Shown here: positions 14,721 to 33,898 of the stretch, one piece after another | Layout: each line of letters opens with the position of its first letter | Position numbering within the stretch: position 1 is the stretch's first letter | Notes under the pieces: model-generated | The model's database searches: none | Told to the model about the DNA's origin: nothing | The model's input: the letters and a program-made list of their open reading frames with translations, nothing else | Program-made: the position numbers and the translations under genes | NCBI GenBank assembly: GCA_028276365.1 | Contig: JAPYWL010000004.1 | Span: 1,793-65,792 of the forward strand | Length of the DNA stretch: 64,000 bases | DNA from: Deltaproteobacteria bacterium | Lineage (GTDB): Bacteria; DRYD01 | Direction of reading: 5' to 3'

Positions 14721-15239
14721 ATGAAAAAACCAGTATTACAATTTTCTATTCCATGCTTGGAAATAGAAACTGAAGATAAACCACCAGTATTTTCTTACGT
14801 ATTTTATGAATTACCTTTTCCTAACGCACCAGTTTCATTTTATATTGCTAATGGATGGTCTAATGGAGAAGGTAGTTTTACTCAAGAAATTAAGTTAATT
14901 AAGCCATCTGGAAATTTATTAGTATCTACAGGAAAACAGGATTTTGAATTAAAGAGTTATAATATTCCTCAGTTAATGGTAAATTTATTTAGAGATATGA
15001 TGTTTGATGAATTTGGAGATTATAAAGTTGAAGTTTATCTTAATGATGAAAAAGTAATAGAATATCCTTTAACTGTTAGACAATTAACTCCTGAGGAAAT
15101 AAGAAGAGTTCAAGAGATACAAAATAGGTTAGAGAATCAAGGAGGTACTAAAGAAAAGCAGGTTCAACAACAGACTTCAGAATCTAAGAAAGAAACAAAG
15201 AGAATATCCTCTGATGATGAATTTCTTATTTCTGGATAA
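14721..15239 (+). CDS. Hypothetical protein: predicted beta-rich domain plus an acidic/polar tail
   Basis: Good SD (AAGGGGG) before the ATG and tightly packed between divIVA and coaD. I recognise no motif. Confidence 0.5.
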   Translation: MKKPVLQFSIPCLEIETEDKPPVFSYVFYELPFPNAPVSFYIANGWSNGEGSFTQEIKLIKPSGNLLVSTGKQDFELKSYNIPQLMVNLFRDMMFDEFGDYKVEVYLNDEKVIEYPLTVRQLTPEEIRRVQEIQNRLENQGGTKEKQVQQQTSESKKETKRISSDDEFLISG

Positions 15240-15252
15240 TAAATAATAGCTA

Positions 15253-15762
15253 ATGAAAAAAATAGCGGTTTATCCTGGTAGTTTTGATCCTATAACCTTA
15301 GGGCATATTGATATAATTAAAAGAGGTATTAATTTATTTGATAAGCTTATTATTTTAGTTATGATTAATCCTAAAAAGCAAGGATTATTTAATATATTTG
15401 AAAGAAAAATTTTAATAGAAAAATCTTTAAAAGAATTTAATTTATTAAACTGTGAAGTAGATGTATATGAAGGATTATTGGTAGATTATTTAAGAAAAAA
15501 TAATTTAAAGTATATAATAAAAGGAATAAGGGCTATTTCAGATTTTGAATATGAATTCCAGCAATATATAGTTAATAGTAGCTTTGATAATGAAATTGAA
15601 ACTATATTTTTTATGACTAATTATGCTTATATGTATCTAAGTTCTTCACTTGTTAAAGAAATAGCTTATTTTAAAGGAGATATCTCTAAATTTGTACCTA
15701 ATTCCATTATTGAGGATATAAATAATAAAATTAATAGTTTAAGGGAGTTGAAAGTGATATGA
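15253..15762 (+). CDS. coaD: Phosphopantetheine adenylyltransferase
   Basis: AVYPGSFDPITLGHIDII (nucleotidyltransferase T/HxGH motif) and the ISSS-like motif SSSLVKEI. Confidence 0.93.
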   Translation: MKKIAVYPGSFDPITLGHIDIIKRGINLFDKLIILVMINPKKQGLFNIFERKILIEKSLKEFNLLNCEVDVYEGLLVDYLRKNNLKYIIKGIRAISDFEYEFQQYIVNSSFDNEIETIFFMTNYAYMYLSSSLVKEIAYFKGDISKFVPNSIIEDINNKINSLRELKVI

Positions 15763-17804
15763 ATCAAATTAATTCTCAAATTAATTTTGAAAATACTAAA
15801 TATTTAAAATATGCTAATTATAAGAATTTGAATGATTTTAATTATAATCAGTTAGAGATATTAGCAAAGGAAATAAGAGATTTTATAACTGAAGTGGTTT
15901 ATCATAATGGAGGACATTATGGAAGTAATTTAGGAATAGTTGAGTTAAGTATTTCTTTATTAAGGAATTTTAATCCTGAATTAGATAAAATAGTATTTGA
16001 TACTTCTCATCAAAGTTATGTTTATAAGATATTAACTGATAGAAAAGAAAGATTTCATACTTTAAGGACTTTTAAGGGGATATCAGGATTTTCTAAGATA
16101 GAAGAAAGTAAATTTGATCATTATGGGGCTGGACATGCGGGTACAGGATTAAGTGCTGCTTTGGGATACGCTAAAGCTAGAGATATTCTAAAACAAGATT
16201 ATAATGTAGTTTCTGTTATAGGTGATGCTGCTTTAACCTGTGGAGTTACTTTTGAAGCTATTAATAATATAGCACAATACCCTTCTAAGTTAATAATAGT
16301 TCTTAATGATAATGAGTTTTCTATTGCTCCCAATGTAGGTGCTTTTTCCATTTATTTAAAAAAACTTAGGAATAATCCTTTTTTAATTAAAGTTGAAAAA
16401 AAATTAGATGAAATTATAAATATATTACTTGTTAATAGTTTAATAAAAAATTTTTTAATTGATACAAAAAGTTGGATAGAAGAAGGTTTTACTAAGATTA
16501 TTTCTCCTTCAATTGTTGGAGTTATTTTTGAGGAATTTGGAATACAGTATATTGGGCCTGTTGATGGACATAATATTAGGTTATTAGATGAAGTATTTTC
16601 TTTTGCTAAAAAATTAGAAAAACCAGTTATTATTCATGTACTAACTGAGAAAGGGAAAGGTTCAAAAGAGGCACAAGAACATCAAGAGAAATTGCATGGA
16701 GTAGCTAAAGGAAAGTTAAAAATCTCTAATTTTATATATTTTTCTACTGATGAGGGATTGAAAGTAGAAAAATCTACAAATTCAGAAGATAAAAAAATAA
16801 AAACGTATACTGAGGTTTTTGGGGAAGCTATTGTAGAATTAGCTAAGGAAGATGAAAAGATAGTTGCTATTACTGCTGCTATGCCTTCTGGAACGGGATT
16901 AATTAATTTTTCAAAATCTTTTCCTGATAGGTTTTTTGATGTAGGGATAGCAGAAGAACATGCTGTTATCTTTGCTAGTACATTAGCTTTAAAAGGATTA
17001 AAACCTGTTGTATGTATTTATTCTACTTTCTTACAAAGAGCTTTTGATATGTTAATTCATGATGTGGCTTTACAAAATATTCCAGTTTTATTTGTATTGG
17101 ATAGAGGAGGGATTGTAGGAGAAGATGGACCTACTCATCATGGAGTATTTGATTTATCTTATTTAAGAATGATACCTAATTTCCAAATCTTTGTTCCTTC
17201 TAATGAGTTAGAATTAAGAAATATTATTTATACAGTATTGCAAAAATTGGATAAACCTACTGCTATAAGATATCCCAGAGATAATGTTGAAGGTATTTAT
17301 CCATTAGATAAGTTTTCTACTATTGATCTATATAAGTGGGTTTTAAATTATGAAACAAAGGAACATAAAAAAGATTCTAAAAAAGTAGCTATTTTAGCTA
17401 CTGGAAGATTAAATAGATTTATTCCTAAACTTATAAAATTGTTAGAAGAAAATGATATTTATTGTAAATGGTATAATTGTATAAGTATTAAACCTTTAGA
17501 TAGTAATGTTTTAAATGATTTAATAGATTATGATTTGGTATTAACTTTAGAAGATAATGTATTAGCGGGTGGTTTTGGAAGTGCTGTTTTAGAATATTAT
17601 AATGATAATTTTTATGATAAAAAAATGAATGTTTTAAGAATTGGATGGGGGGATTATTTTGTTGAGCATGGTTCTATTAAAGAATTATACGATTTTTATG
17701 GAATTAATGAAGTTGAAATTTTTAATAAAGTAATTCAGAAATTAAAAATAGATACTGTAAAGGTAGGTGTAAATAATAATGAATCCATTCAATCAAATAT
17801 TTAG
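15759..17804 (+). CDS. dxs: 1-deoxy-D-xylulose-5-phosphate synthase
   Basis: Motifs GGHYGSNLG, DTSHQSY, GHAGTGLSAALG, GDAALTCG, IAEEHAV and DGPTHHG. Its 4-nt start overlap with coaD suggests translational coupling. Confidence 0.95.
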   Translation: MNQINSQINFENTKYLKYANYKNLNDFNYNQLEILAKEIRDFITEVVYHNGGHYGSNLGIVELSISLLRNFNPELDKIVFDTSHQSYVYKILTDRKERFHTLRTFKGISGFSKIEESKFDHYGAGHAGTGLSAALGYAKARDILKQDYNVVSVIGDAALTCGVTFEAINNIAQYPSKLIIVLNDNEFSIAPNVGAFSIYLKKLRNNPFLIKVEKKLDEIINILLVNSLIKNFLIDTKSWIEEGFTKIISPSIVGVIFEEFGIQYIGPVDGHNIRLLDEVFSFAKKLEKPVIIHVLTEKGKGSKEAQEHQEKLHGVAKGKLKISNFIYFSTDEGLKVEKSTNSEDKKIKTYTEVFGEAIVELAKEDEKIVAITAAMPSGTGLINFSKSFPDRFFDVGIAEEHAVIFASTLALKGLKPVVCIYSTFLQRAFDMLIHDVALQNIPVLFVLDRGGIVGEDGPTHHGVFDLSYLRMIPNFQIFVPSNELELRNIIYTVLQKLDKPTAIRYPRDNVEGIYPLDKFSTIDLYKWVLNYETKEHKKDSKKVAILATGRLNRFIPKLIKLLEENDIYCKWYNCISIKPLDSNVLNDLIDYDLVLTLEDNVLAGGFGSAVLEYYNDNFYDKKMNVLRIGWGDYFVEHGSIKELYDFYGINEVEIFNKVIQKLKIDTVKVGVNNNESIQSNI

Positions 17805-19164
17805 TTTTCTTAGGTTTACTTTATTTTTTATTGTTTTTTATTTTGTTGTAGCTGTTTTTTTATTAATTATAGCATTTATTTTAGTTTTTATTTTAGATAA
17901 ATTGGGTGTTATTTCTTTACTAAAAACGTTTTTAATTATTCCTGCTAACTTTAATTGGTTTGGTTATGTTGTGTATTCTATTGTTGGGATTTTGTTTATA
18001 TTAACGGTTTTAATGGGTAGTGTTATTGTTCAGATTTGGTGGGAGAGGAAGTTTTCAGCTAAGATTCAGGGTAGGATGGGGCCTACTGTTGTTAATTTAC
18101 CTTTTTTACTTGATATAGGGAGTAAAAATATATTTTTAGGAGGGATTTTACAGCCTATTGCTGATGTTATTAAATTAATCCAAAAAGAGATAATGATACC
18201 AGAAACTTCTTATCCTTATTTATTTTTATTATCTCCTATTTTAGCTTTTTCTACGGTTATGATTGTATTCGGAGTAGTACCTTTTAGTAGGGATTTTATT
18301 ATGCTTAAAGATTTAAATATAGGTTTATTATTTATATTTGCTATATCAAGTTATATGGTGATTTCGTTAATATTAGCTGCGTGGGCTTCTAATAATAAAT
18401 ATTCTTTGTTAGGTGGTTTAAGAACAGTTGCTCAAATGCTTAGCTATGAAATTCCTTTGTTGTTATCTTTTTTATCAGTTATTATATTTGTAGGTAGTTT
18501 TGAAGTTGTTAAAATAATAGAAGTTCAAGATAAGATAGGGTGGTTAATATTTTATCAGCCTTTAATGTTTATTATTTTCTTATGGTCTATGGTAGCGGAA
18601 AATAATAGAGCACCATTTGATTTACCAGAAGCGGAAAGCGAATTAGTTGCTGGTTTTGTTACTGAGTATTCTTCTATGGCTTTTTCTTTATTTTATTTAG
18701 CTGAATATGGTTACTTATTCTTTAATAGTATTATAATTTCTATTTTATTTTTAGGTGGAGATTCTTTAATTCCTGTTGCTTTTTTAAATATTCTATCTAA
18801 TTATTTACCAAACAATATTTTTCAATTAATAATACTAGCTAATAGTAATGTTATATGGCTATTTTTGAAAGCTTTTATTGTTTTGACTTTAATAATGCTA
18901 TTTAGATGGACTTATCCAAGGATAAGGATGGATCATTTAATGAATTTAGCTTGGAAAGCTTTTATTCCTATTACACTAATTAATATTATGTTTTCTTCTT
19001 TTGATTTGGTTTTGTCTTTAAATTTATTTAACAATAATTTTATTTTACCTTTATTTAATTGGATTTTCTTTTTAGTTATTATTTATTTAACTGCTATTAA
19101 AAAAATTAGTTTATCTAGTAAATATAAAAATGTACCTATTTTTTATAAGAAATATAGTACTTAA
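17779..19164 (+). CDS. nuoH: NADH-quinone oxidoreductase subunit H (NuoH/ND1/NdhA-like) with N- and C-terminal extensions
   Basis: Motifs WWERKFSAKIQGRMGP, LQPIADVIKL and NRAPFDLPEAESELVAGFVTEYS. By hand count the ERK motif sits at about residue 89, versus about residue 36 in E. coli NuoH as I recall it. That implies an extra N-terminal helix. There is also an extra hydrophobic tail. Confidence 0.9.
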   Translation: MNPFNQIFSFLRFTLFFIVFYFVVAVFLLIIAFILVFILDKLGVISLLKTFLIIPANFNWFGYVVYSIVGILFILTVLMGSVIVQIWWERKFSAKIQGRMGPTVVNLPFLLDIGSKNIFLGGILQPIADVIKLIQKEIMIPETSYPYLFLLSPILAFSTVMIVFGVVPFSRDFIMLKDLNIGLLFIFAISSYMVISLILAAWASNNKYSLLGGLRTVAQMLSYEIPLLLSFLSVIIFVGSFEVVKIIEVQDKIGWLIFYQPLMFIIFLWSMVAENNRAPFDLPEAESELVAGFVTEYSSMAFSLFYLAEYGYLFFNSIIISILFLGGDSLIPVAFLNILSNYLPNNIFQLIILANSNVIWLFLKAFIVLTLIMLFRWTYPRIRMDHLMNLAWKAFIPITLINIMFSSFDLVLSLNLFNNNFILPLFNWIFFLVIIYLTAIKKISLSSKYKNVPIFYKKYST

Positions 19165-19270
19165 AGAAGTATAGTACTTAATAAAGAGGTTTTTAGAAAT
19201 TACTTTTAGAATAATTAAATAAGAAACTGGAATAATTAAATAGGGAGTTAGGAATTGAGGTGATTTATTA

Positions 19271-20941
19271 ATGTTGAGTTCTTTAAATTATTTAGCTGAT
19301 TCTTTAAGGAGATTGATAGATGGGCTTAAAATTACTTCTAGATATTTTTTTAAAGAGCCAATTTATACTTATAATTATCCTATAAAAGTTAAAGAGGTTT
19401 TTTCCAGGTGGCGTGGAAAAGTAAGAGTTAGAGCTTTTAATACTTTAGAAACTATTTATAACAGAAGTGAAAATATGTATAGATCTTTTAATTTACCGCC
19501 GTGTGTTAGGGGGTGTCCTGCTAATGTTGATGCTAGGGGATATGTAGTCTTAGCTGGTGAAGGAAAGTTTTTAGAAGCTTTAAATATAGAAAGAGCACAG
19601 AATCCTACTGCTATGTGTTTTGGGAATCTTTGTACTGCTCCGTGTGAAACTACTTGTAGTAGGAGTGTTCAAGATCATAAGCCTATTGCTATTAGATTAA
19701 TTAAAAAAGCTATCAGTGAATATAATCTAAAAGTTAACTTAGAAAATAAGGGAAGATATAATTTTACTATAGTAGGTAAAGAAAGTAATAAAAGGGTAGC
19801 AGTTATTGGTGGAGGACCTGCGGGTATAGCTTGTGCTCATAGATTACTTAGATATGGGCATAAAGTTGATTTATTTGAAAAATATAATTTTTGTGGTGGA
19901 TATCTCTATTCTGGTGTAGCTTTTTTTAGATTAGATAAGGATATTATGAACAAAGAATATGAGAATTTAGTTACTTTTACGAAGAATGGTAGAATTTTTT
20001 ATAATGCTACTATTATTTCCGAAGAACAAAAAGAAAAATTTAAATTAGTATCTTATAATGATATAAAGGACTTAAATGAGTCTATAAATTATTTAGAAAA
20101 AGGTAGTGGGATATTATTTAGTGAATTAGAGGATAATTATGATGCAGTAGTTATTGCAGCAGGTGCTACTAAACCTAGAAAACTTAATTTAAAAAATGCT
20201 GATAAAGTTGAATTAATTCAAGCTGAATGGTTTTTAGAAGATTGGAATTTAGGTATAAGGAGTTATAAAATCGGTAAAAAGGTAGTAGTTATTGGTGGTG
20301 GGGGAACAGGTATTGATGCTGCTAGAACTTGTAAAAAAGTTTTTTCTGATGAAGTATTTATTGTAGATTTATTGCCTTATGAGGATTTACCTGTAGCTGA
20401 AGAAGAAAAAGTAGAAGCAGAAGAAGATGATAATATAACTTTTATTTGTTCAGTTATGCCTACTGAAGTAGTTATTGATGAGAATAATAATATAAAAGGA
20501 TTGAAAGTAGCTAAGTGTCTATGGGGACCTGTGCTTAGTAATGGTAGGAAAAAATTAATTAAAACTAATGAAGAGTTTGTTATAGAATGTGATACTATTA
20601 TTTTAGCTGTTTCAAGGGATATAGAAATTCCATTTGCTCCTAAGGATATTGTAGGTTTAAGGGGAGAAATAGTAGTAGATGGGTTTGATGTTATGGCAAA
20701 TGGATTTGTATATAAATTTGGACAAAGCCCAAGACCTAAAGTATTTGCTGCGGGTGAAGCTTGTTATGGACCTCAACCTGCTATAGTGGCTTTAGCAAGT
20801 GGTAATAGAACTGCTGAAAAAATTCATATGTATTTAACTAATGAATTACCTCCAGTTTTAGATTTTGAAGTACAAAAAGTTTTAGGGCCTTTAAATGTTC
20901 ACAAGGTTCTAAGGAAATCTGAGGTCTTAAAGGTTAGTTAA
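19271..20941 (+). CDS. Fusion protein: NuoI N-terminal segment plus a GltD/NfnB/SudA-type Fe-S NAD(P)H:FAD oxidoreductase
   Basis: Residues about 15-55 (LIDGLKITSRYFFKEPIYTYNYPIKVKEVFSRWRGKVRV) follow the NuoI N-terminal consensus. The rest is GltD-like: CVRGCP...MCFGNLCTAPCETTC, two Rossmann motifs (VAVIGGGPAGIACA and VVVIGGGGTGIDAA), and VFAAGEACYG. Confidence 0.8.
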   Translation: MLSSLNYLADSLRRLIDGLKITSRYFFKEPIYTYNYPIKVKEVFSRWRGKVRVRAFNTLETIYNRSENMYRSFNLPPCVRGCPANVDARGYVVLAGEGKFLEALNIERAQNPTAMCFGNLCTAPCETTCSRSVQDHKPIAIRLIKKAISEYNLKVNLENKGRYNFTIVGKESNKRVAVIGGGPAGIACAHRLLRYGHKVDLFEKYNFCGGYLYSGVAFFRLDKDIMNKEYENLVTFTKNGRIFYNATIISEEQKEKFKLVSYNDIKDLNESINYLEKGSGILFSELEDNYDAVVIAAGATKPRKLNLKNADKVELIQAEWFLEDWNLGIRSYKIGKKVVVIGGGGTGIDAARTCKKVFSDEVFIVDLLPYEDLPVAEEEKVEAEEDDNITFICSVMPTEVVIDENNNIKGLKVAKCLWGPVLSNGRKKLIKTNEEFVIECDTIILAVSRDIEIPFAPKDIVGLRGEIVVDGFDVMANGFVYKFGQSPRPKVFAAGEACYGPQPAIVALASGNRTAEKIHMYLTNELPPVLDFEVQKVLGPLNVHKVLRKSEVLKVS

Positions 20942-20971
20942 TTTTTATTTTTATAAAAAAGGGGGAGTTTT

Positions 20972-21355
20972 ATGGCTAGATTACCTGAATATGTAAAAAA
21001 TAGTGTAATTTTGGACGATTATGCTTTGGAAGATGGGATTAGATGTTTAAGCTGTGAGAGTGGAGTTTGTATTGCGTGTGGCTACTGCTCTATGGTTTGT
21101 CCTGTTAAAGCTATAAGAATGGAAGTAATTCAAGATGAATTAGGGAGAACTATTGTTGATAAATTTGAGATAAATGTTAGTGCTTGTATATTTTGTGGAT
21201 TATGTGAGCAGGTTTGTCCTACTAAAGTTATTGAAATGGAAAATACTTATGAATTTGCTTTATATAATAATGTTGATGTAGTTAGAATGGATGAATATTT
21301 TGAATATGATGAAAAAAAATCTTTTGATCAAAAATTAATTATTAATAAAGGATAA
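20972..21355 (+). CDS. nuoI: NuoI-type 2x[4Fe-4S] ferredoxin core (NADH-quinone oxidoreductase subunit I, lacking its usual N-terminal segment)
   Basis: Motifs CIACGYCSMVCPVKAI and FEINVSACIFCGLCEQVCPTKVIEMENTYEFALY. The CIFCGLCEE/QxCP motif with y-e-I-N before it and y-E-f after it is the NuoI hallmark. It has its own strong SD (GGGGGAG). Confidence 0.8.
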   Translation: MARLPEYVKNSVILDDYALEDGIRCLSCESGVCIACGYCSMVCPVKAIRMEVIQDELGRTIVDKFEINVSACIFCGLCEQVCPTKVIEMENTYEFALYNNVDVVRMDEYFEYDEKKSFDQKLIINKG

Positions 21356-21363
21356 AAATATAT

Positions 21364-22242
21364 ATGAATAAAAAATCCAAAAAAAACGAAAAAACTACTA
21401 TAGAAAAAAAGAATAAAATTAAAATAGAAAGTAATTATACTGATAAGTTAAAAATAAAAGCAATCGAAAATAAAACTAATATTGAAAATGAAATTAATAG
21501 TGTTGATAAACAAATAGAGGAATCTAATAATAATGCTTATTTAACAAATGATTTAGAAGATAAGTTACTAAATCAGATAAAACAGGATTTTTTTGAAGAA
21601 AATAAGCTAAAAGATCTAAAAGATGAGGAGTTAGTAGAGTTGTATAAAAAAGGATTTAAAGAAGCTTTGGATATTTTAATTAAAAGATATAAAAATGTTA
21701 TATTATCTAAGAGTTTATTATTCTATATATCTAATCCTCAAGAAAGGGATGATATTTTACAAGAAGCCTATTTAGGTTTTTTGAGTGCTATAACAGATTT
21801 TGATAAAAATAAAGGTAGTTTTTATTCTTTTGCTAGTGTTTGTATTCAAAGACATATTTATACTTATATTAAAGCTTTAAATAGGAACAAGCATAAGATT
21901 TTAAAGGGAGCTTTTTCTTTGGAATCTACTTTAAATAAGGATCAGGAGTTTGCTGAAAGAAGATTGGAAGAATATTTAGAGCACTCTAAAATATCTTCTA
22001 ATATACCTTCTATATCTAGTTATTTATCTTCTGATGAAATAGCTTCTGTTAATTTTGATTATAAAGATAAACGAGAAAAAATATTAAAAAAATTAACTCC
22101 TATTGAAAAGGAAATTTTAAAATACAGGAGCTTAGGATACAGTTATAAAGAAATTGCAGATAAAATAGGTAAAAGCATTAAATCAGTAGATAATGCTATT
22201 CAACGTATTAAAAGAAAAGTTAAACTTATATTACAAGATTAA
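21364..22242 (+). CDS. Sigma-70 family RNA polymerase sigma factor, SigH-like, with a Lys/Asn-rich N-terminal extension of about 95 aa
   Basis: Region 2 (DDILQEAYLGFLSAITDFDKNKGSFYSFASVCIQRHIYTYIKALNRNKHKIL) and region 4 (LTPIEKEILKYRSLGYSYKEIADKIGKSIKSVDNAIQRIKRKV) parallel Bacillus SigH as I recall it. Confidence 0.8.
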   Translation: MNKKSKKNEKTTIEKKNKIKIESNYTDKLKIKAIENKTNIENEINSVDKQIEESNNNAYLTNDLEDKLLNQIKQDFFEENKLKDLKDEELVELYKKGFKEALDILIKRYKNVILSKSLLFYISNPQERDDILQEAYLGFLSAITDFDKNKGSFYSFASVCIQRHIYTYIKALNRNKHKILKGAFSLESTLNKDQEFAERRLEEYLEHSKISSNIPSISSYLSSDEIASVNFDYKDKREKILKKLTPIEKEILKYRSLGYSYKEIADKIGKSIKSVDNAIQRIKRKVKLILQD

Positions 22243-22254
22243 AAATTATTTATT

Positions 22255-23487
22255 ATGTATATAAGGATTTTGATTTTTTTTATTGTTAATTTTATAGTTT
22301 TTTACTTTTATTTAGTAATTTCTTCATATGGTTATAATGTTTATAGATCGAATTTCATGTCATTGTTAAATCAAGAAAGCTATGATGTTATTAGAGTATT
22401 AATAGATAGTGGGTATATTAAAGATAGGATTGATTTAAAGGGGAGTAATATAAGTTTAAGATATTCTTTAAAGAAATATCCTTCTATTTATCAAGGCTCT
22501 AATAATTTGTTTAATTTTTTATCAATAGTTTATAATTATCCTTATTTAGATTATTATTATTCTGAGAATAAGTATTATATTAATTTTGAGGATATAAGTG
22601 ATGTTTTAGTTTTATCGAATGATTTTATTGAGTATAAAAATAGGAAATATAGAGGAATAATGAGAATAATTTTTAAAGATCATAAATATTATTTAATTAA
22701 TTATGTTAGTTTAGAGGATTATTTAAAAGCGGTTGTACCATCAGAGATGCCATATACCTGGAGTATAGAGGCTTTAAAAGCACAAGCTATTGCTGCAAGA
22801 ACTTATGCTATTAAAATGATGTTAACTAGGAGATCTAAAAATGAGATTTTTGATGTTTATTCTACTGTTTTGGATCAAGCTTATTATGGGATTGATTATG
22901 AAAAAGATACTACTAATTTAGCAGTGGATTCTACTAAAGGTATGATCTTAGTTTTTAATAACGAACCTATTTGGGCTTTATATCATTCTAATTGTGGAGG
23001 ATTTACTATTGATGGATATTTACCCTTTGCTAAAACAGTATCTAAAGAAGATTATTATTTATCTTCTGTTAAATGTTATTATCCTGGAAATACTTGGGTT
23101 TCTAAAATTAGTTTATATGAAATAAAGGATTTGTTAAAAAAATATACTAAAAGAGAAGTTTATTCAATTAATTCTATTTCTGTTAATTCATTTAAAACTA
23201 CTTTTATTTACCAAACTGTGAATAATACTTTTGTTAATTATAGTATATATAATTGGGAGTTAAGGAAGTTATTGAATTATAGAATAAAAAGTCCGTTTAT
23301 AGATAAAGTAAGTATTGAGAAGGATTGGGTAATTTTTGAGGGTAAAGGTAATGGGCATGGAGTAGGTATGTGTCAATATGGAGCAAATTATATGGCTAAA
23401 GCTGGATATAGTTATGTTCAAATACTAAATCATTATTATCCTAATTCTGTTTTAATTAACTTAACTGATTATTTTTCTAAAAAATGA
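22255..23487 (+). CDS. SpoIID/LytB domain-containing protein (peptidoglycan lytic transglycosylase family)
   Basis: N-terminal TM helix. Motifs VVPSEMPYTWSIEALKAQAIAARTYA, YHSNCGG and GNGHGVGMCQYGA. Confidence 0.88.
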   Translation: MYIRILIFFIVNFIVFYFYLVISSYGYNVYRSNFMSLLNQESYDVIRVLIDSGYIKDRIDLKGSNISLRYSLKKYPSIYQGSNNLFNFLSIVYNYPYLDYYYSENKYYINFEDISDVLVLSNDFIEYKNRKYRGIMRIIFKDHKYYLINYVSLEDYLKAVVPSEMPYTWSIEALKAQAIAARTYAIKMMLTRRSKNEIFDVYSTVLDQAYYGIDYEKDTTNLAVDSTKGMILVFNNEPIWALYHSNCGGFTIDGYLPFAKTVSKEDYYLSSVKCYYPGNTWVSKISLYEIKDLLKKYTKREVYSINSISVNSFKTTFIYQTVNNTFVNYSIYNWELRKLLNYRIKSPFIDKVSIEKDWVIFEGKGNGHGVGMCQYGANYMAKAGYSYVQILNHYYPNSVLINLTDYFSKK

Positions 23488-23537
23488 AAAATAAATAGTA
23501 ATCATAGTTTAAATATTGATTAAATAATTTATAATTT

Positions 23538-24065
23538 ATGAGTTTTAAATTATTAAAATTAATTTCAGAAGAGGAAATTCAGAAAGGAGTATCTTATATT
23601 GCTAATAAGTTGAATAGTTTTTTAGATGAGAATTATGAAGATGAGTGGTATTTTATAACGGTGATGAAGGAGGGTATACCTTTTAGTGTTGATTTATCTA
23701 AGCAAATTAGGCATAATTTGATATTTGATTATATATTTTTAGAAAAGATATTTGAATATGATAATATTAAGGAGTTAGCTATAAAAAAAGATATATTTTT
23801 ACCTGTTAATAATAAAAATGTGATAGTATGTGCTACTGTTATTCATACGGGATATGAGGTTAATTTTATAAAAGAAGCTCTAAGGATTAGGGGAGCTAAG
23901 TCTATATTTATTGTTAGTTTAGTATTAAAACAGTATCCTAATAGTATAGTTAAGCCAGATTTTTATTATTTTGATATTGAGGGGACCGAATTTTTAGTTG
24001 GTTATGGGTTAGGTTATAATGAAAAGTATAGGAATCTTAATTCTATTTATAAGTTGGCTCTTTAA
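23538..24065 (+). CDS. Hypoxanthine phosphoribosyltransferase-like protein, probably catalytically degenerate
   Basis: Collinear with HPRT, including the C-terminal FLVGYGLGYNEKYRNLNSIY. The PRPP loop reads VIVCATVIHTGYEV where HPRT has VLIVEDIIDSGxTL. Confidence 0.7.
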   Translation: MSFKLLKLISEEEIQKGVSYIANKLNSFLDENYEDEWYFITVMKEGIPFSVDLSKQIRHNLIFDYIFLEKIFEYDNIKELAIKKDIFLPVNNKNVIVCATVIHTGYEVNFIKEALRIRGAKSIFIVSLVLKQYPNSIVKPDFYYFDIEGTEFLVGYGLGYNEKYRNLNSIYKLAL

Positions 24066-30849: not shown

Positions 30850-32370
30850 ATGAGTAATAGTTTTTATTCTATAGGCGTGTTAATTTTGATTTTAGCTCAT
30901 TTAGTTTTACCATTATTATTATTTTTTATAAAAGAAAAGTATGTTAGATGTTATTCTATAATAATAGGTAGTTTAATAGGGGCTTTTTCTATATTTTTAG
31001 CACTTTCTTTTTATTATAACCCTGACATTACTTTATTTACTTTTAATTTAAATTTATTTGGGTTAGATTATAGGTTTAGAATAGATAATTTTAACTATAG
31101 TTTAATATTATTAAATGGTTTAATAACTTTTGCTTTTCCTTTGGCTACTCATATTAAAGAAAGGGAAAAAGATTTTTATGTTTTAGCGTTTTTGGTTATG
31201 TTGGGGACTGCTGGTTTATTTTTAACTCAAAATATGATACTTTTTGTATTGTTTTACGAGTTAGCAAGTGTTCCTATGTATTTTTTAATTGCCAATTGGG
31301 GTAGTTTAGGATTAACTCCTTTTAGAAAAGTTGAGCCTAAATATGCTGCTATGAAATTATTTATTTATCTTCAGTTAGGTGGAATATTAGTAATGTTGGG
31401 ATTTTTTATATTACATTCTTTAGTATTTCCTAATGATTTATTTAATAATTGGAATTTTAGTGATTATGAAAATATAATTAAGGTGAAGGGATATTTAGTA
31501 GATACTGATTTAGCTAAGATTTTATTTATTTTATTTTTTGTAGCTTTTGGGATAGAGGCTGCATTAGTACCATTTCATACTTGGTTACCTGATGGGCACT
31601 CTGCTGCTCCTAGTTCTATTAGTATGATTTTAGCAGGTATATTACTTAAGATGGGAACCTATGGGATTCTTAGAATCCCTTTTGTATTTTTTAATGAAGC
31701 TTTAAATAGTTTATCTTTAGTAATTATATTTTGGGGATTAATAAATATGTTTTGGGGAGCTTTTAATGCTTATAGACAAATAGATTTTAAATATTTAATA
31801 GCTTATTCTAGTATAAGTCATATGGGAGTAATTTTTATGGGGCTTGGTGCTAATAATGATTTAGGAGTAAGTGCAGCTATATTTCAGATGGTTTCTCACG
31901 GTTTAATTTCTGCGGTTATGTTTTCAGTTGCTGGGTCTTTTCAATATAGAACTAATACGAGGATATTAGATAATTATGGAGGGCTTTTAAGAGTGATGCC
32001 ATTTATTGGATCTATACTAATTTTTGCTTCTATGGCTAATTTAGGGTTACCTGGATTAAGTGGATTTGTTTCTGAGCTAATTGGTATATCTGCTTCTTTA
32101 AAAGCTATTTATTCTAATAATCTCAAAATTATCTTTCTTTTAGTTTCATTAGGTGCTATTTTTATTACTACTGTTTATGTTATTAATTTACTTGAAAAAG
32201 TTTTATATAAAAGAATAAATCCTAATTACTATGAATTAAAGGATGCTCATTGGGATGAAAAATTACATTTAACTATTTTAGCTTTATTTATATTAGTATT
32301 AGGTATTTATCCCAGATTAATAATGGATTTATCTAATTTAATTAAAATAAAGCAAATTATAGGGTTATAG
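30850..32370 (+). CDS. nuoM: NADH-quinone oxidoreductase subunit M (NuoM/ND4/NdhD-like)
   Basis: PFHTWLPDGHSAAPSSISMILAGILLKMGTYGILR and AYSSISHMG. 506 aa, polytopic. Confidence 0.9.
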   Translation: MSNSFYSIGVLILILAHLVLPLLLFFIKEKYVRCYSIIIGSLIGAFSIFLALSFYYNPDITLFTFNLNLFGLDYRFRIDNFNYSLILLNGLITFAFPLATHIKEREKDFYVLAFLVMLGTAGLFLTQNMILFVLFYELASVPMYFLIANWGSLGLTPFRKVEPKYAAMKLFIYLQLGGILVMLGFFILHSLVFPNDLFNNWNFSDYENIIKVKGYLVDTDLAKILFILFFVAFGIEAALVPFHTWLPDGHSAAPSSISMILAGILLKMGTYGILRIPFVFFNEALNSLSLVIIFWGLINMFWGAFNAYRQIDFKYLIAYSSISHMGVIFMGLGANNDLGVSAAIFQMVSHGLISAVMFSVAGSFQYRTNTRILDNYGGLLRVMPFIGSILIFASMANLGLPGLSGFVSELIGISASLKAIYSNNLKIIFLLVSLGAIFITTVYVINLLEKVLYKRINPNYYELKDAHWDEKLHLTILALFILVLGIYPRLIMDLSNLIKIKQIIGL

Positions 32371-32398
32371 AAAGATAATAGAAGGAGTTGAATTATTT

Positions 32399-33898
32399 AT
32401 GGATATATTATTTAAGTTATTTCCAGAGGCTATTTTAACTATTTCTATTATTTTTAATATTTTAATAATTTCAATTGCTAAAAATATTAAGGAATTAAGG
32501 AATGCTTTTCTGTTGGTTTTTATATTTTCTATATTTTTTACAATTGCTTCCTTGATTTTTCAATTATATTTTATAGTAAGTGGAAGTGAGCTTATTGATT
32601 TATCTTTAATTTTAAATAATATTATGGTTTATGGGGTAAGTTCTTTTGAGATAGTTAGTAAAATATTGTTATCTATTGTAGCTATTATTTTAGCTTTTAT
32701 TGTTTCTATATATTTTTATACAGATAAATATGAGCATAGATATTTCAAATTAGAATATTTACCTTTATTTTTAACTGTTTTATTGGGTTCATTTGTTTTA
32801 GTTAGTGCTAAAGACTTATTAACTTTTTTAATAGGCTTTGAGTTGGTTGCTATTCCTTCTTATTTTGTTATAGCACTTGATAATAAGAATAAAATATCTT
32901 TAGAAGGTAGTATTAAGTATTTTTTAATTGGCTCTATTTCCACTATTAGCATTATTTTAGGTATTTTGATATTTTATATATTTAACGGGAGCTTTTTATA
33001 TTCTGCTAATTTAAATAATTTTAATTTAATTTCTTTAAAGTTAGGGTTTTTATTTATTTTAATTGGTATTATTTTAAAATTAGCTGTATTTCCATTTTCT
33101 TTTTGGATTCAAGACGCTTATTATGCTAGTAGAATTCCTTATTTATTACTTATTTCTACATTTCCTAAGTATTCTGTGGTTTTAGCTTTAATAAATATGT
33201 TAAGTTATATTCAGGATGGATATTTTAAGATTTTATTGAGTGTATTGGCGGTTTTATCTATGGTTATGGGGGTATTTTGGGCTTTAAATGAAAATGATAT
33301 AAAAAAAATTATAGCTTATTCTACTGTTTTTAATATGGGTTTTATTTTAATTCCATTTACTGGATTCTCTTTTAATATTGAACAAAAAATTTATGTTTTG
33401 TCTTTAGTTAATTTTTATATTTTTCAGTATATTTTATCTACTATTTTAATTTTGGGAGTTTTATTATATTTAGAAGAAAAATATGATACTACTGATATGT
33501 TAAAACTAAAAGGAGTTTTAGCTAATAATAAAGCTTTATCGTTTTTGTTAATTGTGGGATTACTTTCTACTGCCGGGTTACCTCCTACTGTTGGTTTTAT
33601 TGCTAAGTTTTTTGTCTTAGCTTTTTCTTATAAATTTAACCCTATTTTAGTTATAATTGCAATTATATTTTCAGTTGCTTCACTATATTATTATTATAGA
33701 ATAGCTAAAGAATTATACGTTGAAAAAGAATTTAGTTTAGCTAATAACTTATCTTCTTTAGATTTTTCTTTAAAAAATTCTTTTTTGTATTATGTTTCTC
33801 TTTTTGGTGTTTCTATTTTGTTAATAATTTTAGGATTATTACCTTATTTTATTACTAATACGTTCTATTTTATTACTTATACTACTATTAAGTTTTAA
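32399..33898 (+). CDS. nuoN: NADH-quinone oxidoreductase subunit N (NuoN/ND2/NdhB-like)
   Basis: GFELVAIPSY, FPFSFWIQDAYYASRIP, IAYSTVFNMG and GLPPTVGFIAKF. Confidence 0.85.
   Translation: MDILFKLFPEAILTISIIFNILIISIAKNIKELRNAFLLVFIFSIFFTIASLIFQLYFIVSGSELIDLSLILNNIMVYGVSSFEIVSKILLSIVAIILAFIVSIYFYTDKYEHRYFKLEYLPLFLTVLLGSFVLVSAKDLLTFLIGFELVAIPSYFVIALDNKNKISLEGSIKYFLIGSISTISIILGILIFYIFNGSFLYSANLNNFNLISLKLGFLFILIGIILKLAVFPFSFWIQDAYYASRIPYLLLISTFPKYSVVLALINMLSYIQDGYFKILLSVLAVLSMVMGVFWALNENDIKKIIAYSTVFNMGFILIPFTGFSFNIEQKIYVLSLVNFYIFQYILSTILILGVLLYLEEKYDTTDMLKLKGVLANNKALSFLLIVGLLSTAGLPPTVGFIAKFFVLAFSYKFNPILVIIAIIFSVASLYYYYRIAKELYVEKEFSLANNLSSLDFSLKNSFLYYVSLFGVSILLIILGLLPYFITNTFYFITYTTIKF

What the first reader, a model, noticed from the sequence alone, without database searches (positions are those of the whole stretch)
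19271..21355. NuoI is split, and its N-terminal segment is fused to a complete GltD/NfnB-type NAD(P)H flavoprotein: a candidate novel electron-input module for a complex I-like enzyme
Two genes lie directly after nuoH (17779..19164).

Gene 1 (556 aa): residues about 15-55 read LIDGLKITSRYFFKEPIYTYNYPIKVKEVFSRWRGKVRV. This follows the conserved N-terminal segment of NuoI/Nqo9/NdhI. As I recall it, E. coli NuoI reads ...[30 protein letters not shown]... just before the first Fe-S motif. Here that segment runs not into the ferredoxin core but into a full GltD/NfnB/SudA-like module. That module has a Cys-rich Fe-S region (CVRGCPANVD...MCFGNLCTAPCETTC), an FAD Rossmann motif (VAVIGGGPAGIACA), an NAD(P)H Rossmann motif (VVVIGGGGTGIDAA) and the C-terminal VFAAGEACYG.

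Gene 2 (127 aa, own strong SD GGGGGAG): this is the missing NuoI core, with CIACGYCSMVCP and FEINVSACIFCGLCEQVCPTKVIEMENTYEFALY.

So the NuoI polypeptide appears interrupted by, and partly fused to, a pyridine-nucleotide-oxidising flavoprotein. No NuoE/F/G genes are present in the window. My inference is that the flavoprotein docks on the NuoH/NuoI interface through the retained NuoI N-terminal segment. It would then feed NAD(P)H electrons straight into the N6a/N6b-type clusters. I do not know of this architecture having been described.
Basis: partly seen in the sequence, partly recalled or inferred. Interest (0 to 1): 0.78.

Follow-up and report, generated by a model that had tools for sequence, protein, structure and literature searches.

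The report
Complex I NuoI carrying a flavoprotein
Two adjacent genes after nuoH encode a complex I NuoI subunit that carries a built-in NAD(P)H-oxidising flavoprotein. The same design sits at the nuoI position of NuoEFG-less complex I operons in several phyla, which points to one concrete electron donor for these enzymes.

Summary
Gene 1 (19271-20941, 556 aa) starts with a true NuoI N-terminal segment. The first 77 residues alone hit only NuoI models, in register. Twelve of 14 equivalent segments from diverged relatives do the same, with a best E-value of 2.5e-10. A GltD/NfnB-type FAD and NAD(P)H module follows. Gene 2 (20972-21355, 127 aa) is the NuoI 2x[4Fe-4S] core.

- The GltD module is not quite complete. 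Its first Fe-S segment (RCLSC) sits at the N-terminus of gene 2, so the two proteins probably share a cluster.
- The design is not unique. One-piece proteins of 620-700 aa (NuoI N-segment, GltD, NuoI core) and other split pairs occupy the nuoI slot in nuoABCDH-[x]-JKLMN operons without nuoEFG. These come from Chloroflexota and Planctomycetota-cluster MAGs and from unassigned metagenome contigs; further one-piece members (context not examined) are labelled Actinomycetota and Firmicutes.
- The pair is conserved in all Calescibacterium-like relatives found.

The most likely function is a built-in NAD(P)H (here probably NADH) input module feeding N6a/N6b. This is inferred, not shown. I found no published description. 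The nearest is an mbx-like operon with a gltD-type subunit (Degli Esposti 2015). Whether this genome also has nuoEFG is unresolved.

The parts
17779..19164 (+). nuoH-like gene (461 aa), overlapping the end of dxs by 26 nt
   Evidence: PF00146 at 1e-101. Best NCBIfam hits are NuoH equivalogs (301.9 bits, cutoff 305). 40% identical to the NuoH of the L006 operon.
19271..20941 (+). Gene 1 (556 aa): NuoI N-terminal segment fused to a GltD/NfnB-type flavoprotein
   Evidence: Twelve orthologue clusters at 74-92% identity, 551-561 aa. AF2 model: pLDDT 78, pTM 0.78.
19304..19441 (+). NuoI N-terminal segment (about residues 12-57: LRRLIDGLKITSRYFFKEPIYTYNYPIKVKEVFSRWRGKVRVRAF)
   Evidence: Scanned alone it hits only NuoI models, in register. 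Nearly invariant in the Calescibacterium-like group. Predicted helix 2-26, then a low-confidence stretch 26-74, as expected for a partner-dependent segment.
19496..19732 (+). GltD-type Fe-S domain, incomplete (residues 76-154). Ligand candidates: Cys78, Cys82, Cys121, Cys125, Glu126, Cys129
   Evidence: Fer4_20 at 44.2 bits, model positions 30-110 of 113 only. These residues are invariant across the family.
19793..20803 (+). FAD and NAD(P)H dinucleotide-binding domains (residues 175-511). FAD motif VAVIGGGPAG at 176-185. Second Rossmann motif VVVIGGGGTGID at 338-349, followed by IVDLL (Asp366)
   Evidence: Pyr_redox_2 at 3.2e-25. Closest solved sequences are StnC 8oh5_C, NfnABC 9bov_A and 9n5u_A, NfnI-L 5jca_L and NfnB 4ylf_B. 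Asp366 replaces the YRR seen in most relatives.
20972..21355 (+). Gene 2 (127 aa): NuoI 2x[4Fe-4S] core preceded by the missing first segment of the GltD Fe-S domain. Own SD GGGGGAG at 20961-20967
   Evidence: TIGR01971 NuoI at 3.7e-22. Best single-stretch PDB match is E. coli NuoI 7p62_I, 63 bits, residues 32-106. Orthologues at 80-98% identity. Sequence.
21017..21061 (+). Gene 2 residues 16-30 (DYALEDGIRCLSCES): the permuted first segment of the GltD Fe-S domain, with Cys25 and Cys28
   Evidence: Placing gene 2 residues 1-30 in front of gene 1 residue 75 raises Fer4_20 from 47.2 bits (model 30-110) to 60.0 bits (model 15-110). The two Cys are invariant in the 9 one-piece proteins of A2 and the 42 of A6, and present in all three other split cores read.
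21056..21289 (+). NuoI ferredoxin core: CIACGYCSMVCP (Cys33, 36, 39, 43) and CIFCGLCEQVCP (Cys72, 75, 78, 82), the N6a/N6b-type sites
30850..32370 (+). NuoM-like antiporter subunit (506 aa), about 10 kb downstream
   Evidence: PF00361 at 5.9e-59. Best match to the fourth antiporter-like gene of the L006 operon, 210 bits.
32399..33898 (+). NuoN-like antiporter subunit (499 aa)
   Evidence: PF00361 at 3.4e-47. Best match to the last antiporter-like gene of L006.

Best explanation
The two genes together encode a NuoI (TYKY/Nqo9) subunit of a respiratory complex I with a GltD/NfnB-type flavoprotein built into it. In relatives this is one polypeptide: NuoI N-segment, then a GltD module lacking its first Fe-S segment, then that missing segment, then the NuoI 2x[4Fe-4S] core. 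Here, and independently elsewhere, it is cut into two genes in the variable linker.

Shown:
- the domain order;
- the homology of each part;
- conservation of the pair;
- occupation of the nuoI slot in NuoEFG-less nuo operons.

Inferred:
- Gene 1 and gene 2 form an obligate pair. One GltD-type [4Fe-4S] cluster would be ligated by Cys78 and Cys129 of gene 1 and Cys25 and Cys28 of gene 2.
- The pair sits where NuoI sits, with the N-terminal segment lying against NuoH at the membrane surface.
- Electrons run NAD(P)H, FAD, two GltD-type [4Fe-4S] clusters, N6a, N6b, N2, quinone. The module would replace NuoEFG as the dehydrogenase module.
- Asp366 in place of the usual YRR suggests NADH rather than NADPH in this lineage.
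For: - Domains and register.
- The concatenated genes are colinear end to end with nine one-piece proteins of 621-696 aa. The start of gene 2 falls on a Met that is conserved inside the one-piece proteins (R..MP.L).
- Operon position. L006: nuoA-B-C-D-H-[653 aa]-J-K followed by antiporter-like genes. L007 and L003. L021, Chloroflexota. Split pairs in full operons L090, L091 and L092. None of these operons has nuoE, F or G.
- NuoD in L006, L090 and L092 is quinone-type, not a hydrogenase.
- Permuted Fe-S domain: +12.8 bits when gene 2 residues 1-30 are placed in front of the gene 1 domain. The count of 7 Cys plus Glu for two clusters is reached only with gene 2.
- AF2 model of the one-piece P0129: pLDDT 86 and pTM 0.84, so the GltD module and NuoI core are packed confidently. 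Only the N-segment (residues 1-50) has low confidence. Foldseek: NfnI-L and NfnB at TM 0.82, rmsd 2.0-2.5 angstroms; StnC and NfnABC aligned over about 600 columns.
- Pair conserved with nuoH in two other Calescibacterium-like genomes whose flanks differ.
- No terminator-like site on the + strand between nuoH, gene 1 and gene 2.
- Calescamantes are described as aerobic heterotrophs with heme-copper oxidase and nuo genes (PMC4791363).
Against: - No biochemical or expression data exist.
- The window holds only nuoH, the pair, and nuoM/N-like genes. NuoA, B, C, D, J, K and L were not seen. Complex membership in this organism therefore rests on homology and on relatives.
- A published gene table for a related assembly lists genes annotated nuoE, nuoG and nuoI, with nuoF absent. 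A conventional N-module or a second nuoI cannot be excluded.
- The closest non-Calescibacterium relatives (the Vulcanimicrobiota-like group) carry the one-piece gene alone, with no nuo gene within 10 kb.
- Conserved GltD motifs have diverged here: GVAFFRLD for GIPxYRLP.
- The contact of the NuoI N-segment with NuoH is recalled from published complex I structures and was not tested here. The NuoI score stays below the curated cutoff (94 against 113 bits).
Confidence: 0.62

Rival explanations
1. The same physical complex works mainly in the opposite direction, or reversibly. The GltD module would be the site where NAD(P)+ is reduced, with electrons coming from quinol (driven by proton-motive force) or from ferredoxin. 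This was proposed for the gltD-type subunit of mbx-like operons.
For: - Degli Esposti 2015 interprets the gltD-related subunit of mbx-like operons as the NAD(P)+ reduction site.
- GltD-type modules are reversible in Nfn enzymes (PMC8097209).
- Many relatives carry YRR (NADPH-type) motifs and come from anoxic sediments or anaerobe-rich phyla.
Against: - Calescamantes are described as aerobic heterotrophs with heme-copper oxidases, where NADH oxidation is the expected direction.
- This lineage has Asp rather than YRR at the 2'-phosphate position.
- The operons contain NuoA, H, J, K, L, M, N and a quinone-type NuoD, not an Mrp/Mbx layout.
Confidence: 0.15
2. The complex still takes its electrons from ferredoxin or another soluble carrier, as assumed for other 11-subunit enzymes. 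The GltD module would be an accessory: an alternative or overflow route, a redox sensor, or an assembly or stability element. It would not be the main input.
For: - The donor of 11-subunit complex I is generally thought to be ferredoxin, or several different partners (PMC3144371 and PMC11238625).
- Conserved GltD motifs have diverged in the Calescibacterium proteins.
- nuoE- and nuoG-annotated genes are listed in a related assembly.
Against: - All cofactor motifs (two GxGxxG motifs, 7 Cys plus Glu) are kept and are invariant over 74-92% identical orthologues and in distant relatives.
- A 450-residue insert placed on the electron-entry side of NuoI would be expected to cover the usual donor site. 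This is inference.
Confidence: 0.12
3. The pair is a soluble Nfn-, sulfide-dehydrogenase- or PRK12771-like flavoprotein plus ferredoxin that only happens to lie next to nuoH. It is not part of complex I.
For: - The best whole-protein NCBIfam hit of gene 1 is PRK12771 'NAD(P)-binding protein', whose model ends in a ferredoxin domain.
- PRK12771-like P0027 and P0033 have the same permuted Fe-S layout.
- One-piece relatives stand alone in the Vulcanimicrobiota-like group.
Against: - The N-terminal segment matches only NuoI models.
- The core is NuoI-type, not generic ferredoxin.
- The pair or the fusion replaces nuoI in seven operon-type loci read here (L003, L006, L007, L021, L090, L091, L092), which have no other nuoI between nuoH and nuoJ.
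- There is no NfnA/PyrK-like partner gene nearby.
Confidence: 0.05
4. The split is a sequencing or assembly error, or a recent pseudogenisation of a one-piece gene.
For: One-piece versions exist.
Against: - All 12 Calescibacterium-like relatives of gene 1 end at the same length (551-561 aa); gene 2 has its own SD.
- Two unrelated lineages (L090, L092) are split at the equivalent site.
Confidence: 0.01

Closest known systems
NuoI / Nqo9 / NDUFS8 (TYKY), the 2x[4Fe-4S] subunit of complex I (TIGR01971)
   Same: N-terminal segment (GL.IT..YFF..P.T..YP....R.RG) and both CxxCxxCxxxCP motifs, with the NuoI-typical C.FCG.CE..CPT. Gene position directly after nuoH, and before nuoJ in relatives.
   Different: About 470 residues of flavoprotein plus linker lie between the N-segment and the core. 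The product is two polypeptides here. Two extra invariant Cys precede the first motif. Scores stay below the curated cutoff (78 and 94 bits against 113).
GltD-like NAD(P)H flavoproteins: NfnB/NfnI-L (4ylf_B, 5jca_L), glutamate synthase beta subunit (2vdc_G), and the GltD domains of StnC/NfnABC (8oh5_C, 9bov_A, 9n5u_A)
   Same: Fer4_20 Fe-S domain, FAD and NAD(P)H Rossmann domains. Foldseek TM 0.80-0.82 and rmsd 2.0-2.6 angstroms for the one-piece relative.
   Different: No NfnA/PyrK-like or GltB partner gene. The Fe-S domain is permuted, with its first segment moved behind the flavoprotein and onto gene 2. It is fused to NuoI parts. All equivalog cutoffs are missed by a wide margin.
[quoted passage not shown]
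   Same: A GltD-type NAD(P)(H) module genetically attached to a complex I-related membrane enzyme.
   Different: That case is an Mrp/Mbx-type complex with a vestigial-hydrogenase NuoD, read as NAD(P)+-reducing. Here NuoI is kept (N-segment plus core) and the context is nuoABCDH..JKLMN with a quinone-type NuoD. The GltD genes I saw between nuoB- and nuoD-like genes (L044, L047, L069, L075 and others) lack both NuoI parts. I could not inspect the Thermotoga protein itself.
FpoF/FqoF, the F420H2-oxidising input subunit of archaeal Fpo/Fqo complexes
   Same: An alternative flavoprotein input module on an 11-subunit complex I core (context from PMC3144371).
   Different: Unrelated fold and substrate. 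It is a separate subunit, not inserted in the NuoI homologue. Not compared by sequence here.
Dihydropyrimidine dehydrogenase (1h7w and others)
   Same: A GltD-like domain and an 8Fe ferredoxin-like domain in one chain, passing electrons through four [4Fe-4S] clusters (PMC8097209; Foldseek hits).
   Different: Soluble, with an FMN/pyrimidine domain and no NuoI features.

Membership tests
NuoI (TIGR01971 / PRK05888) | N-terminal segment that precedes the ferredoxin core | tested here: met
   Gene 1 residues 1-77 hit only NuoI models, in register. Twelve of 14 family N-segments do so, best E 2.5e-10.
NuoI (TIGR01971 / PRK05888) | Two CxxCxxCxxxCP motifs with NuoI-type spacing and flanks | tested here: met
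   Gene 2 Cys33/36/39/43 and Cys72/75/78/82. TIGR01971 at 3.7e-22. Best single-stretch PDB match is E. coli NuoI.
NuoI (TIGR01971 / PRK05888) | Score at or above the curated cutoff, as one polypeptide | tested here: not met
   78.2 bits for gene 2 alone and 94.3 bits for the artificial N-segment plus gene 2, against a cutoff of 113.05. Two genes with a flavoprotein in between.
NuoI (TIGR01971 / PRK05888) | Gene between nuoH and nuoJ in a nuo operon | tested here: inconclusive
   In the window it follows nuoH but is followed by a sigma factor gene. In relatives L006, L007, L021, L090 and L092 it lies between nuoH and nuoJ.
GltD-like flavoprotein (Fer4_20 + Pyr_redox_2) | FAD and NAD(P)H GxGxxG motifs and Pyr_redox_2 above the cutoff | tested here: met
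   89.6 bits against 26.1. VAVIGGGPAG and VVVIGGGGTG.
GltD-like flavoprotein (Fer4_20 + Pyr_redox_2) | Complete N-terminal Fe-S domain (7 Cys plus Glu for two [4Fe-4S]) on the same chain | tested here: not met
   Gene 1 covers Fer4_20 positions 30-110 only, with 5 Cys plus Glu. Positions 15-29 with 2 Cys are on gene 2.
Glutamate synthase small subunit / NfnB (equivalog level) | Curated equivalog score, and a partner gene (gltB or nfnA) adjacent | tested here: not met
   TIGR01316 at 183 against 472. TIGR01317 at 129 against 448. PRK12771 at 264 against 516. Neighbours are nuoH, the NuoI core and a sigma factor.
11-subunit (NuoEFG-less) complex I | nuoA, B, C, D, H, I, J, K, L, M, N present and nuoE, F, G absent in the genome | not testable with these tools
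   The window has only H, the pair, and M/N-like genes, and no E/F-like sequence. A related assembly is reported with nuoA, C/D, H, I, J, K, L and with nuoE- and nuoG-annotated genes, nuoF absent. Relatives with the same gene type have full 11-gene operons without E, F or G.
11-subunit (NuoEFG-less) complex I | Quinone-type NuoD (no NiFe cysteines; His loop and Tyr motif) | tested here: met
   Met for relatives only. L006, L090 and L092 NuoD have GPQHP..HG and GYLHR with no CxxC. NuoD of the window organism was not seen.
mbx-like complex with gltD-type subunit (Degli Esposti 2015) | Mrp/Mbx-type operon in which the flavoprotein replaces the NuoI homologue | tested here: not met
   NuoI parts are retained, and the relatives' operons are the nuoABCDH..JKLMN type.

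The most novel reading that the evidence does not exclude
A previously unrecognised class of respiratory complex I, found in several phyla, in which the NAD(P)H-oxidising module is a GltD-type FAD flavoprotein inserted into NuoI instead of NuoEFG. Its Fe-S domain is permuted, so that in split forms such as this one a [4Fe-4S] cluster is shared between two polypeptides. This would be a third solution for electron input, besides the FMN N-module and FpoF or ferredoxin docking. A parallel Chloroflexia variant inserts NuoE-, NuoF- and NuoG-N/GltD-like parts into NuoI.
Probability: 0.55. Interest if true: 0.85.

Novelty: new variant of a known kind. Interest (0 to 1): 0.76.

Why it matters
What donates electrons to the widespread 11-subunit complex I that lacks NuoEFG has been an open question. 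A search for a common partner protein failed, and a 'docking platform for various donors' was proposed (PMC3144371 and PMC11238625).

Here the donor module is written into the nuoI gene itself. For these lineages the question becomes directly testable by co-expression of two genes, NAD(P)H:quinone assays, EPR and cryo-EM. If confirmed, the case would show three things:
- Complex I can run on an FAD/GltD-type dehydrogenase.
- NuoI is the evolutionary insertion point for new input modules.
- Genome-based metabolic reconstructions that score such organisms as 'ferredoxin-dependent' or 'incomplete complex I' would need revising.

Current annotations call these proteins only 'FAD-dependent oxidoreductase' or 'glutamate synthase beta subunit-like'.

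Tried and rejected
- **Promoter and terminator scan, 15000-24000.** Promoter-like hits were no more frequent than in shuffles (55 against 61). This is uninformative in 24% GC DNA. It only shows that there is no terminator-like site between the three genes.
- **First genome scan with the broad N-terminal alignment A3.** The scan with A4 used one pattern ([LF]G[RN][VLI]CxAPCE), so it sampled only the subfamily with APCE. The HPCE subfamily was not scanned.
- **Word-index homologue search with gene 2.** It returned only two orthologue clusters. It gave no information on a second nuoI in Calescibacterium.
- **Extending the contig.** The region upstream of the window holds no nuo genes. The downstream look-up found no record.
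- **Rough neighbour-joining tree of 150 GltD cores.** It did not place the N-segment-bearing proteins in one clade. It has no support values, and my regular expression missed four members. Single or multiple origin is therefore left open.
- **Electron bifurcation at the FAD, as in NfnB.** Rejected as the main reading, because no NfnA-like second acceptor branch is encoded nearby.
- **Ten literature searches.** None found a description of a GltD-inserted NuoI. The library covers only open-access papers and bioRxiv, so absence is not proof.
- **A citable statement that the NuoI N-terminus contacts NuoH.** Not found. That point rests on my recollection of published structures such as 4HEA.


Full report
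**Setting**

The window is very AT-rich, at 19-29% GC. Its closest relatives are metagenome-assembled genomes labelled Candidatus Calescibacterium sp.. That genus belongs to the candidate phylum Calescibacteriota, also called Calescamantes or EM19. Published work describes this group as hot-spring aerobic heterotrophs with heme-copper oxidases and 'nearly complete' nuo genes (PMC4791363).

The genes around the finding all lie on the + strand and are tightly packed:
- dxs, 15759-17804
- nuoH-like, 17779-19164
- gene 1, 19271-20941
- gene 2, 20972-21355
- an ECF-type sigma factor, 21364-22242
- a SpoIID-family gene

**Checking the observation**

The profile searches gave these results.
- nuoH matches PF00146 at 1e-101 and NuoH equivalogs.
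- Gene 1 matches Fer4_20 over residues 76-154 and Pyr_redox_2 over residues 175-511. Its best whole-protein NCBIfam hits are GltD-like models, all far below their cutoffs: PRK12771 at 264 against 516 and gltA at 183 against 472. It is therefore GltD-like, but not a glutamate synthase subunit or a named equivalog.
- Gene 2 matches NuoI TIGR01971 at 3.7e-22, over model positions 40-115 of 121. Its best single-stretch match among solved structures is E. coli NuoI.

The critical claim is that residues 15-55 of gene 1 are the NuoI N-terminal segment. It holds.
- The first 77 residues alone hit five models out of 18,950. All five are NuoI, and all are in the correct N-terminal register.
- Adding this segment to gene 2 extends the TIGR01971 match to positions 1-115 and raises it by 16 bits.
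- Across 14 diverged family members, 12 N-terminal segments hit NuoI, NdhI or FpoI models and nothing else, with a best E of 2.5e-10.

The split is real. All 12 Calescibacterium-like relatives of gene 1 end at the same length. Gene 2 has its own GGGGGAG ribosome-binding site. Orthologues of gene 2 exist at 80-98% identity.

**A correction: the GltD module is permuted**

Gene 1 covers only positions 30-110 of the Fer4_20 model. The missing start, with the usual RC..C cysteine pair, is at the N-terminus of gene 2 (DYALEDGIRCLSC).

I placed gene 2 residues 1-30 in front of the gene 1 domain. This raised the Fer4_20 score from 47.2 to 60.0 bits and extended the match to model positions 15-110. The two cysteines are invariant in the nine one-piece relatives aligned in A2 and the 42 in A6. 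They are also present in the three other split cores read. Canonical NuoI, as far as I recall it, lacks them.

The 7 Cys plus Glu needed for the two GltD-type clusters are reached only by counting gene 2. The ligand number comes from established knowledge of NfnB and GltD (PMC8097209). I therefore infer that one cluster is shared between the two polypeptides, which would make them an obligate pair.

**The wider family**

An exhaustive search of 1.84 billion representatives found distant relatives at 31-38% identity that align from the N-terminal segment onward. Nine of them are single proteins of 621-696 aa with the full order: NuoI N-segment, GltD, RCL.C segment, NuoI core. Concatenated gene 1 plus gene 2 is colinear with them. 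Gene 2 starts at a Met that is conserved inside the one-piece proteins. A profile search found about 40 further clusters of this type. NCBI and JGI name the listed members only 'FAD-dependent oxidoreductase' or 'glutamate synthase beta subunit-like', in a few cases with NuoI added; some representatives carry no name.

The genomic context is decisive.
- L006: the one-piece gene lies between nuoA-B-C-D-H and nuoJ-K plus antiporter-like genes.
- L007 and L003: the same, in partial view.
- L021, a Chloroflexota MAG: the same.
- L090, L091 and L092 (the last in a cluster with a Planctomycetota-labelled member): the split form, 492-494 aa plus 145-172 aa, occupies the same slot in complete 11-gene operons.

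None of these operons contains nuoE, F or G. Their NuoD proteins have the quinone-type motifs and no hydrogenase cysteines.

In the two other Calescibacterium-like genomes examined, nuoH, the pair and the sigma factor stay together while the flanks differ.

One group does not fit so neatly. The closest non-Calescibacterium relatives, from a Vulcanimicrobiota MAG, MAGs labelled Burkholderiales, Selenomonadaceae or Bacillota, and unlabelled MAGs, carry the one-piece gene with no nuo gene within 10 kb.

**Structure predictions**

The one-piece relative P0129 folds with pLDDT 86 and pTM 0.84. Only residues 1-50 have low confidence. Its flavoprotein part superposes on NfnI-L and NfnB at TM 0.82 and rmsd 2.0-2.5 angstroms. 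About 600 columns align with StnC and NfnABC subunits.

Window gene 1 folds with pLDDT 78 and pTM 0.78. It shows an N-terminal helix (residues 2-26), then an unconfident stretch (residues 26-74), and a weaker Fe-S domain. That pattern is what one expects if the N-segment and the Fe-S domain need partners. It is not proof.

**Mechanism**

*Shown:* domain identities and order, conservation, and replacement of nuoI in NuoEFG-less operons.

*Inferred:*
- The pair sits at the NuoI position.
- The N-segment lies on NuoH. This rests on my recollection of structures such as 4HEA. I found no citable passage.
- Electrons flow NAD(P)H, FAD, two GltD clusters, N6a, N6b, N2, quinone.
- In the second Rossmann domain most relatives have YRR after strand beta-2, the usual NADPH signature in GltD, NfnB and DPD. 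The Calescibacterium proteins have IVDLL with an invariant Asp, and another subgroup has CLE. From general Rossmann-fold rules this suggests NADH here.

The rivals are reverse operation, an accessory role, a soluble enzyme, and an artefact. They are weighed in their own section of this report.

**What remains open**

The window lacks nuoA, B, C, D, J, K and L. It contains nuoM- and nuoN-like genes 10 kb away, so nuo genes are scattered in this genome.

A published table for a related, incomplete Calescamantes assembly lists nuoA, C/D, H, I, J, K and L. It also lists genes annotated nuoE and nuoG, with nuoF absent. I could not inspect those genes. A conventional N-module or a second nuoI in this organism is therefore not excluded. 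Whether the family arose once or several times is also unresolved.

**Comparison with what is known, and novelty**

Alternative input modules are known for complex I relatives. Examples are FpoF, the cyanobacterial ferredoxin-binding subunits, and the Campylobacter variants. Degli Esposti (2015) noted a gltD-related flavoprotein 'substituting' NuoI in mbx-like operons, read as an NAD(P)+-reducing site.

The present architecture differs from that case in three ways. It retains both NuoI parts. It sits in true nuoABCDH..JKLMN operons with a quinone-type NuoD. It has a permuted, sometimes split, Fe-S domain.

Ten full-text searches found no description of it. I rate it a new variant of a known kind. 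It is of high interest because it gives a concrete, testable answer to the donor question for part of the 11-subunit complex I family.

Noticed in passing
L079 7457-12226 (also L061, L063, L066, L068, L073, L076, L078, L080, L086, L088, L030): In Chloroflexia and Limnocylindrales MAGs, three genes lie between nuoABCDH and nuoJKLMN. The first joins a NuoI N-segment and first ferredoxin motif to a NuoE-like domain. The second is NuoF-like. The third is NuoG-N (2Fe-2S) plus GltD plus a NuoI-like ferredoxin end. An Stn/NfnABC-like module appears to be inserted into NuoI at a different point.
   Followed up: partly
L044, L047, L050, L069, L075, L081, L083; protein P0035: GltD-like genes without NuoI parts sit between nuoB-like and nuoD-like genes, in Bathyarchaeota, Dehalococcoidia, Bacteroidales and Nitrososphaerales MAGs. 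P0035 is a NuoC (30 kDa) plus GltD fusion. This is possibly the mbx-like/gltD type of Degli Esposti 2015.
   Followed up: partly
L004, L010-L020: The closest non-Calescibacterium relatives (from a Vulcanimicrobiota MAG, MAGs labelled Burkholderiales, Selenomonadaceae or Bacillota, and unlabelled MAGs) carry the one-piece NuoI-GltD gene alone. In six loci a metallo-beta-lactamase-fold gene and a MerR-type gene are conserved neighbours. There are no nuo genes within 10 kb.
   Followed up: partly
window 30850-33898: NuoM- and NuoN-like genes lie as a pair 10 kb downstream of nuoH, separated from it by unrelated genes. The nuo genes are scattered in this genome.
   Followed up: partly
window 46530-48800: One 756-aa ORF combines glutamyl-tRNA reductase (GlutR_N, Shikimate_DH) with porphobilinogen deaminase. 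This is a HemA-HemC fusion.
   Followed up: no
window 21364-22242 and L001 12071-12769: An ECF-type sigma-70 gene follows the NuoI core gene by a few bases in both Calescibacterium-like genomes, although the other flanks differ.
   Followed up: no
window 17779-17804: The nuoH start overlaps the end of dxs by 26 nt. NuoH is long (461 aa), with N- and C-terminal extensions beyond the PF00146 match (residues 71-405).
   Followed up: no
window 20003-20100 (gene 1 residues about 245-277): A Calescibacterium-specific insert of about 30 residues (IISEEQKEKFKLVSYNDIKDLNESINYLEKGSG) lies in the FAD domain. The conserved GIPxYRLP motif has diverged to GVAFFRLD. Both features are invariant within the group.
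   Followed up: no
window 27573-29657 (- strand): A 694-aa Ser/Thr protein kinase whose N-terminal half is a long Asn/Lys/Tyr-rich, low-complexity region with a transmembrane segment.
   Followed up: no
proteins P0027, P0033: PRK12771-like soluble flavoproteins show the same permuted layout. A C...CP start is followed by the GltD module, then EA.RC..C plus a ferredoxin domain at the C-terminus. The permutation therefore predates or is independent of the link to NuoI.
   Followed up: no
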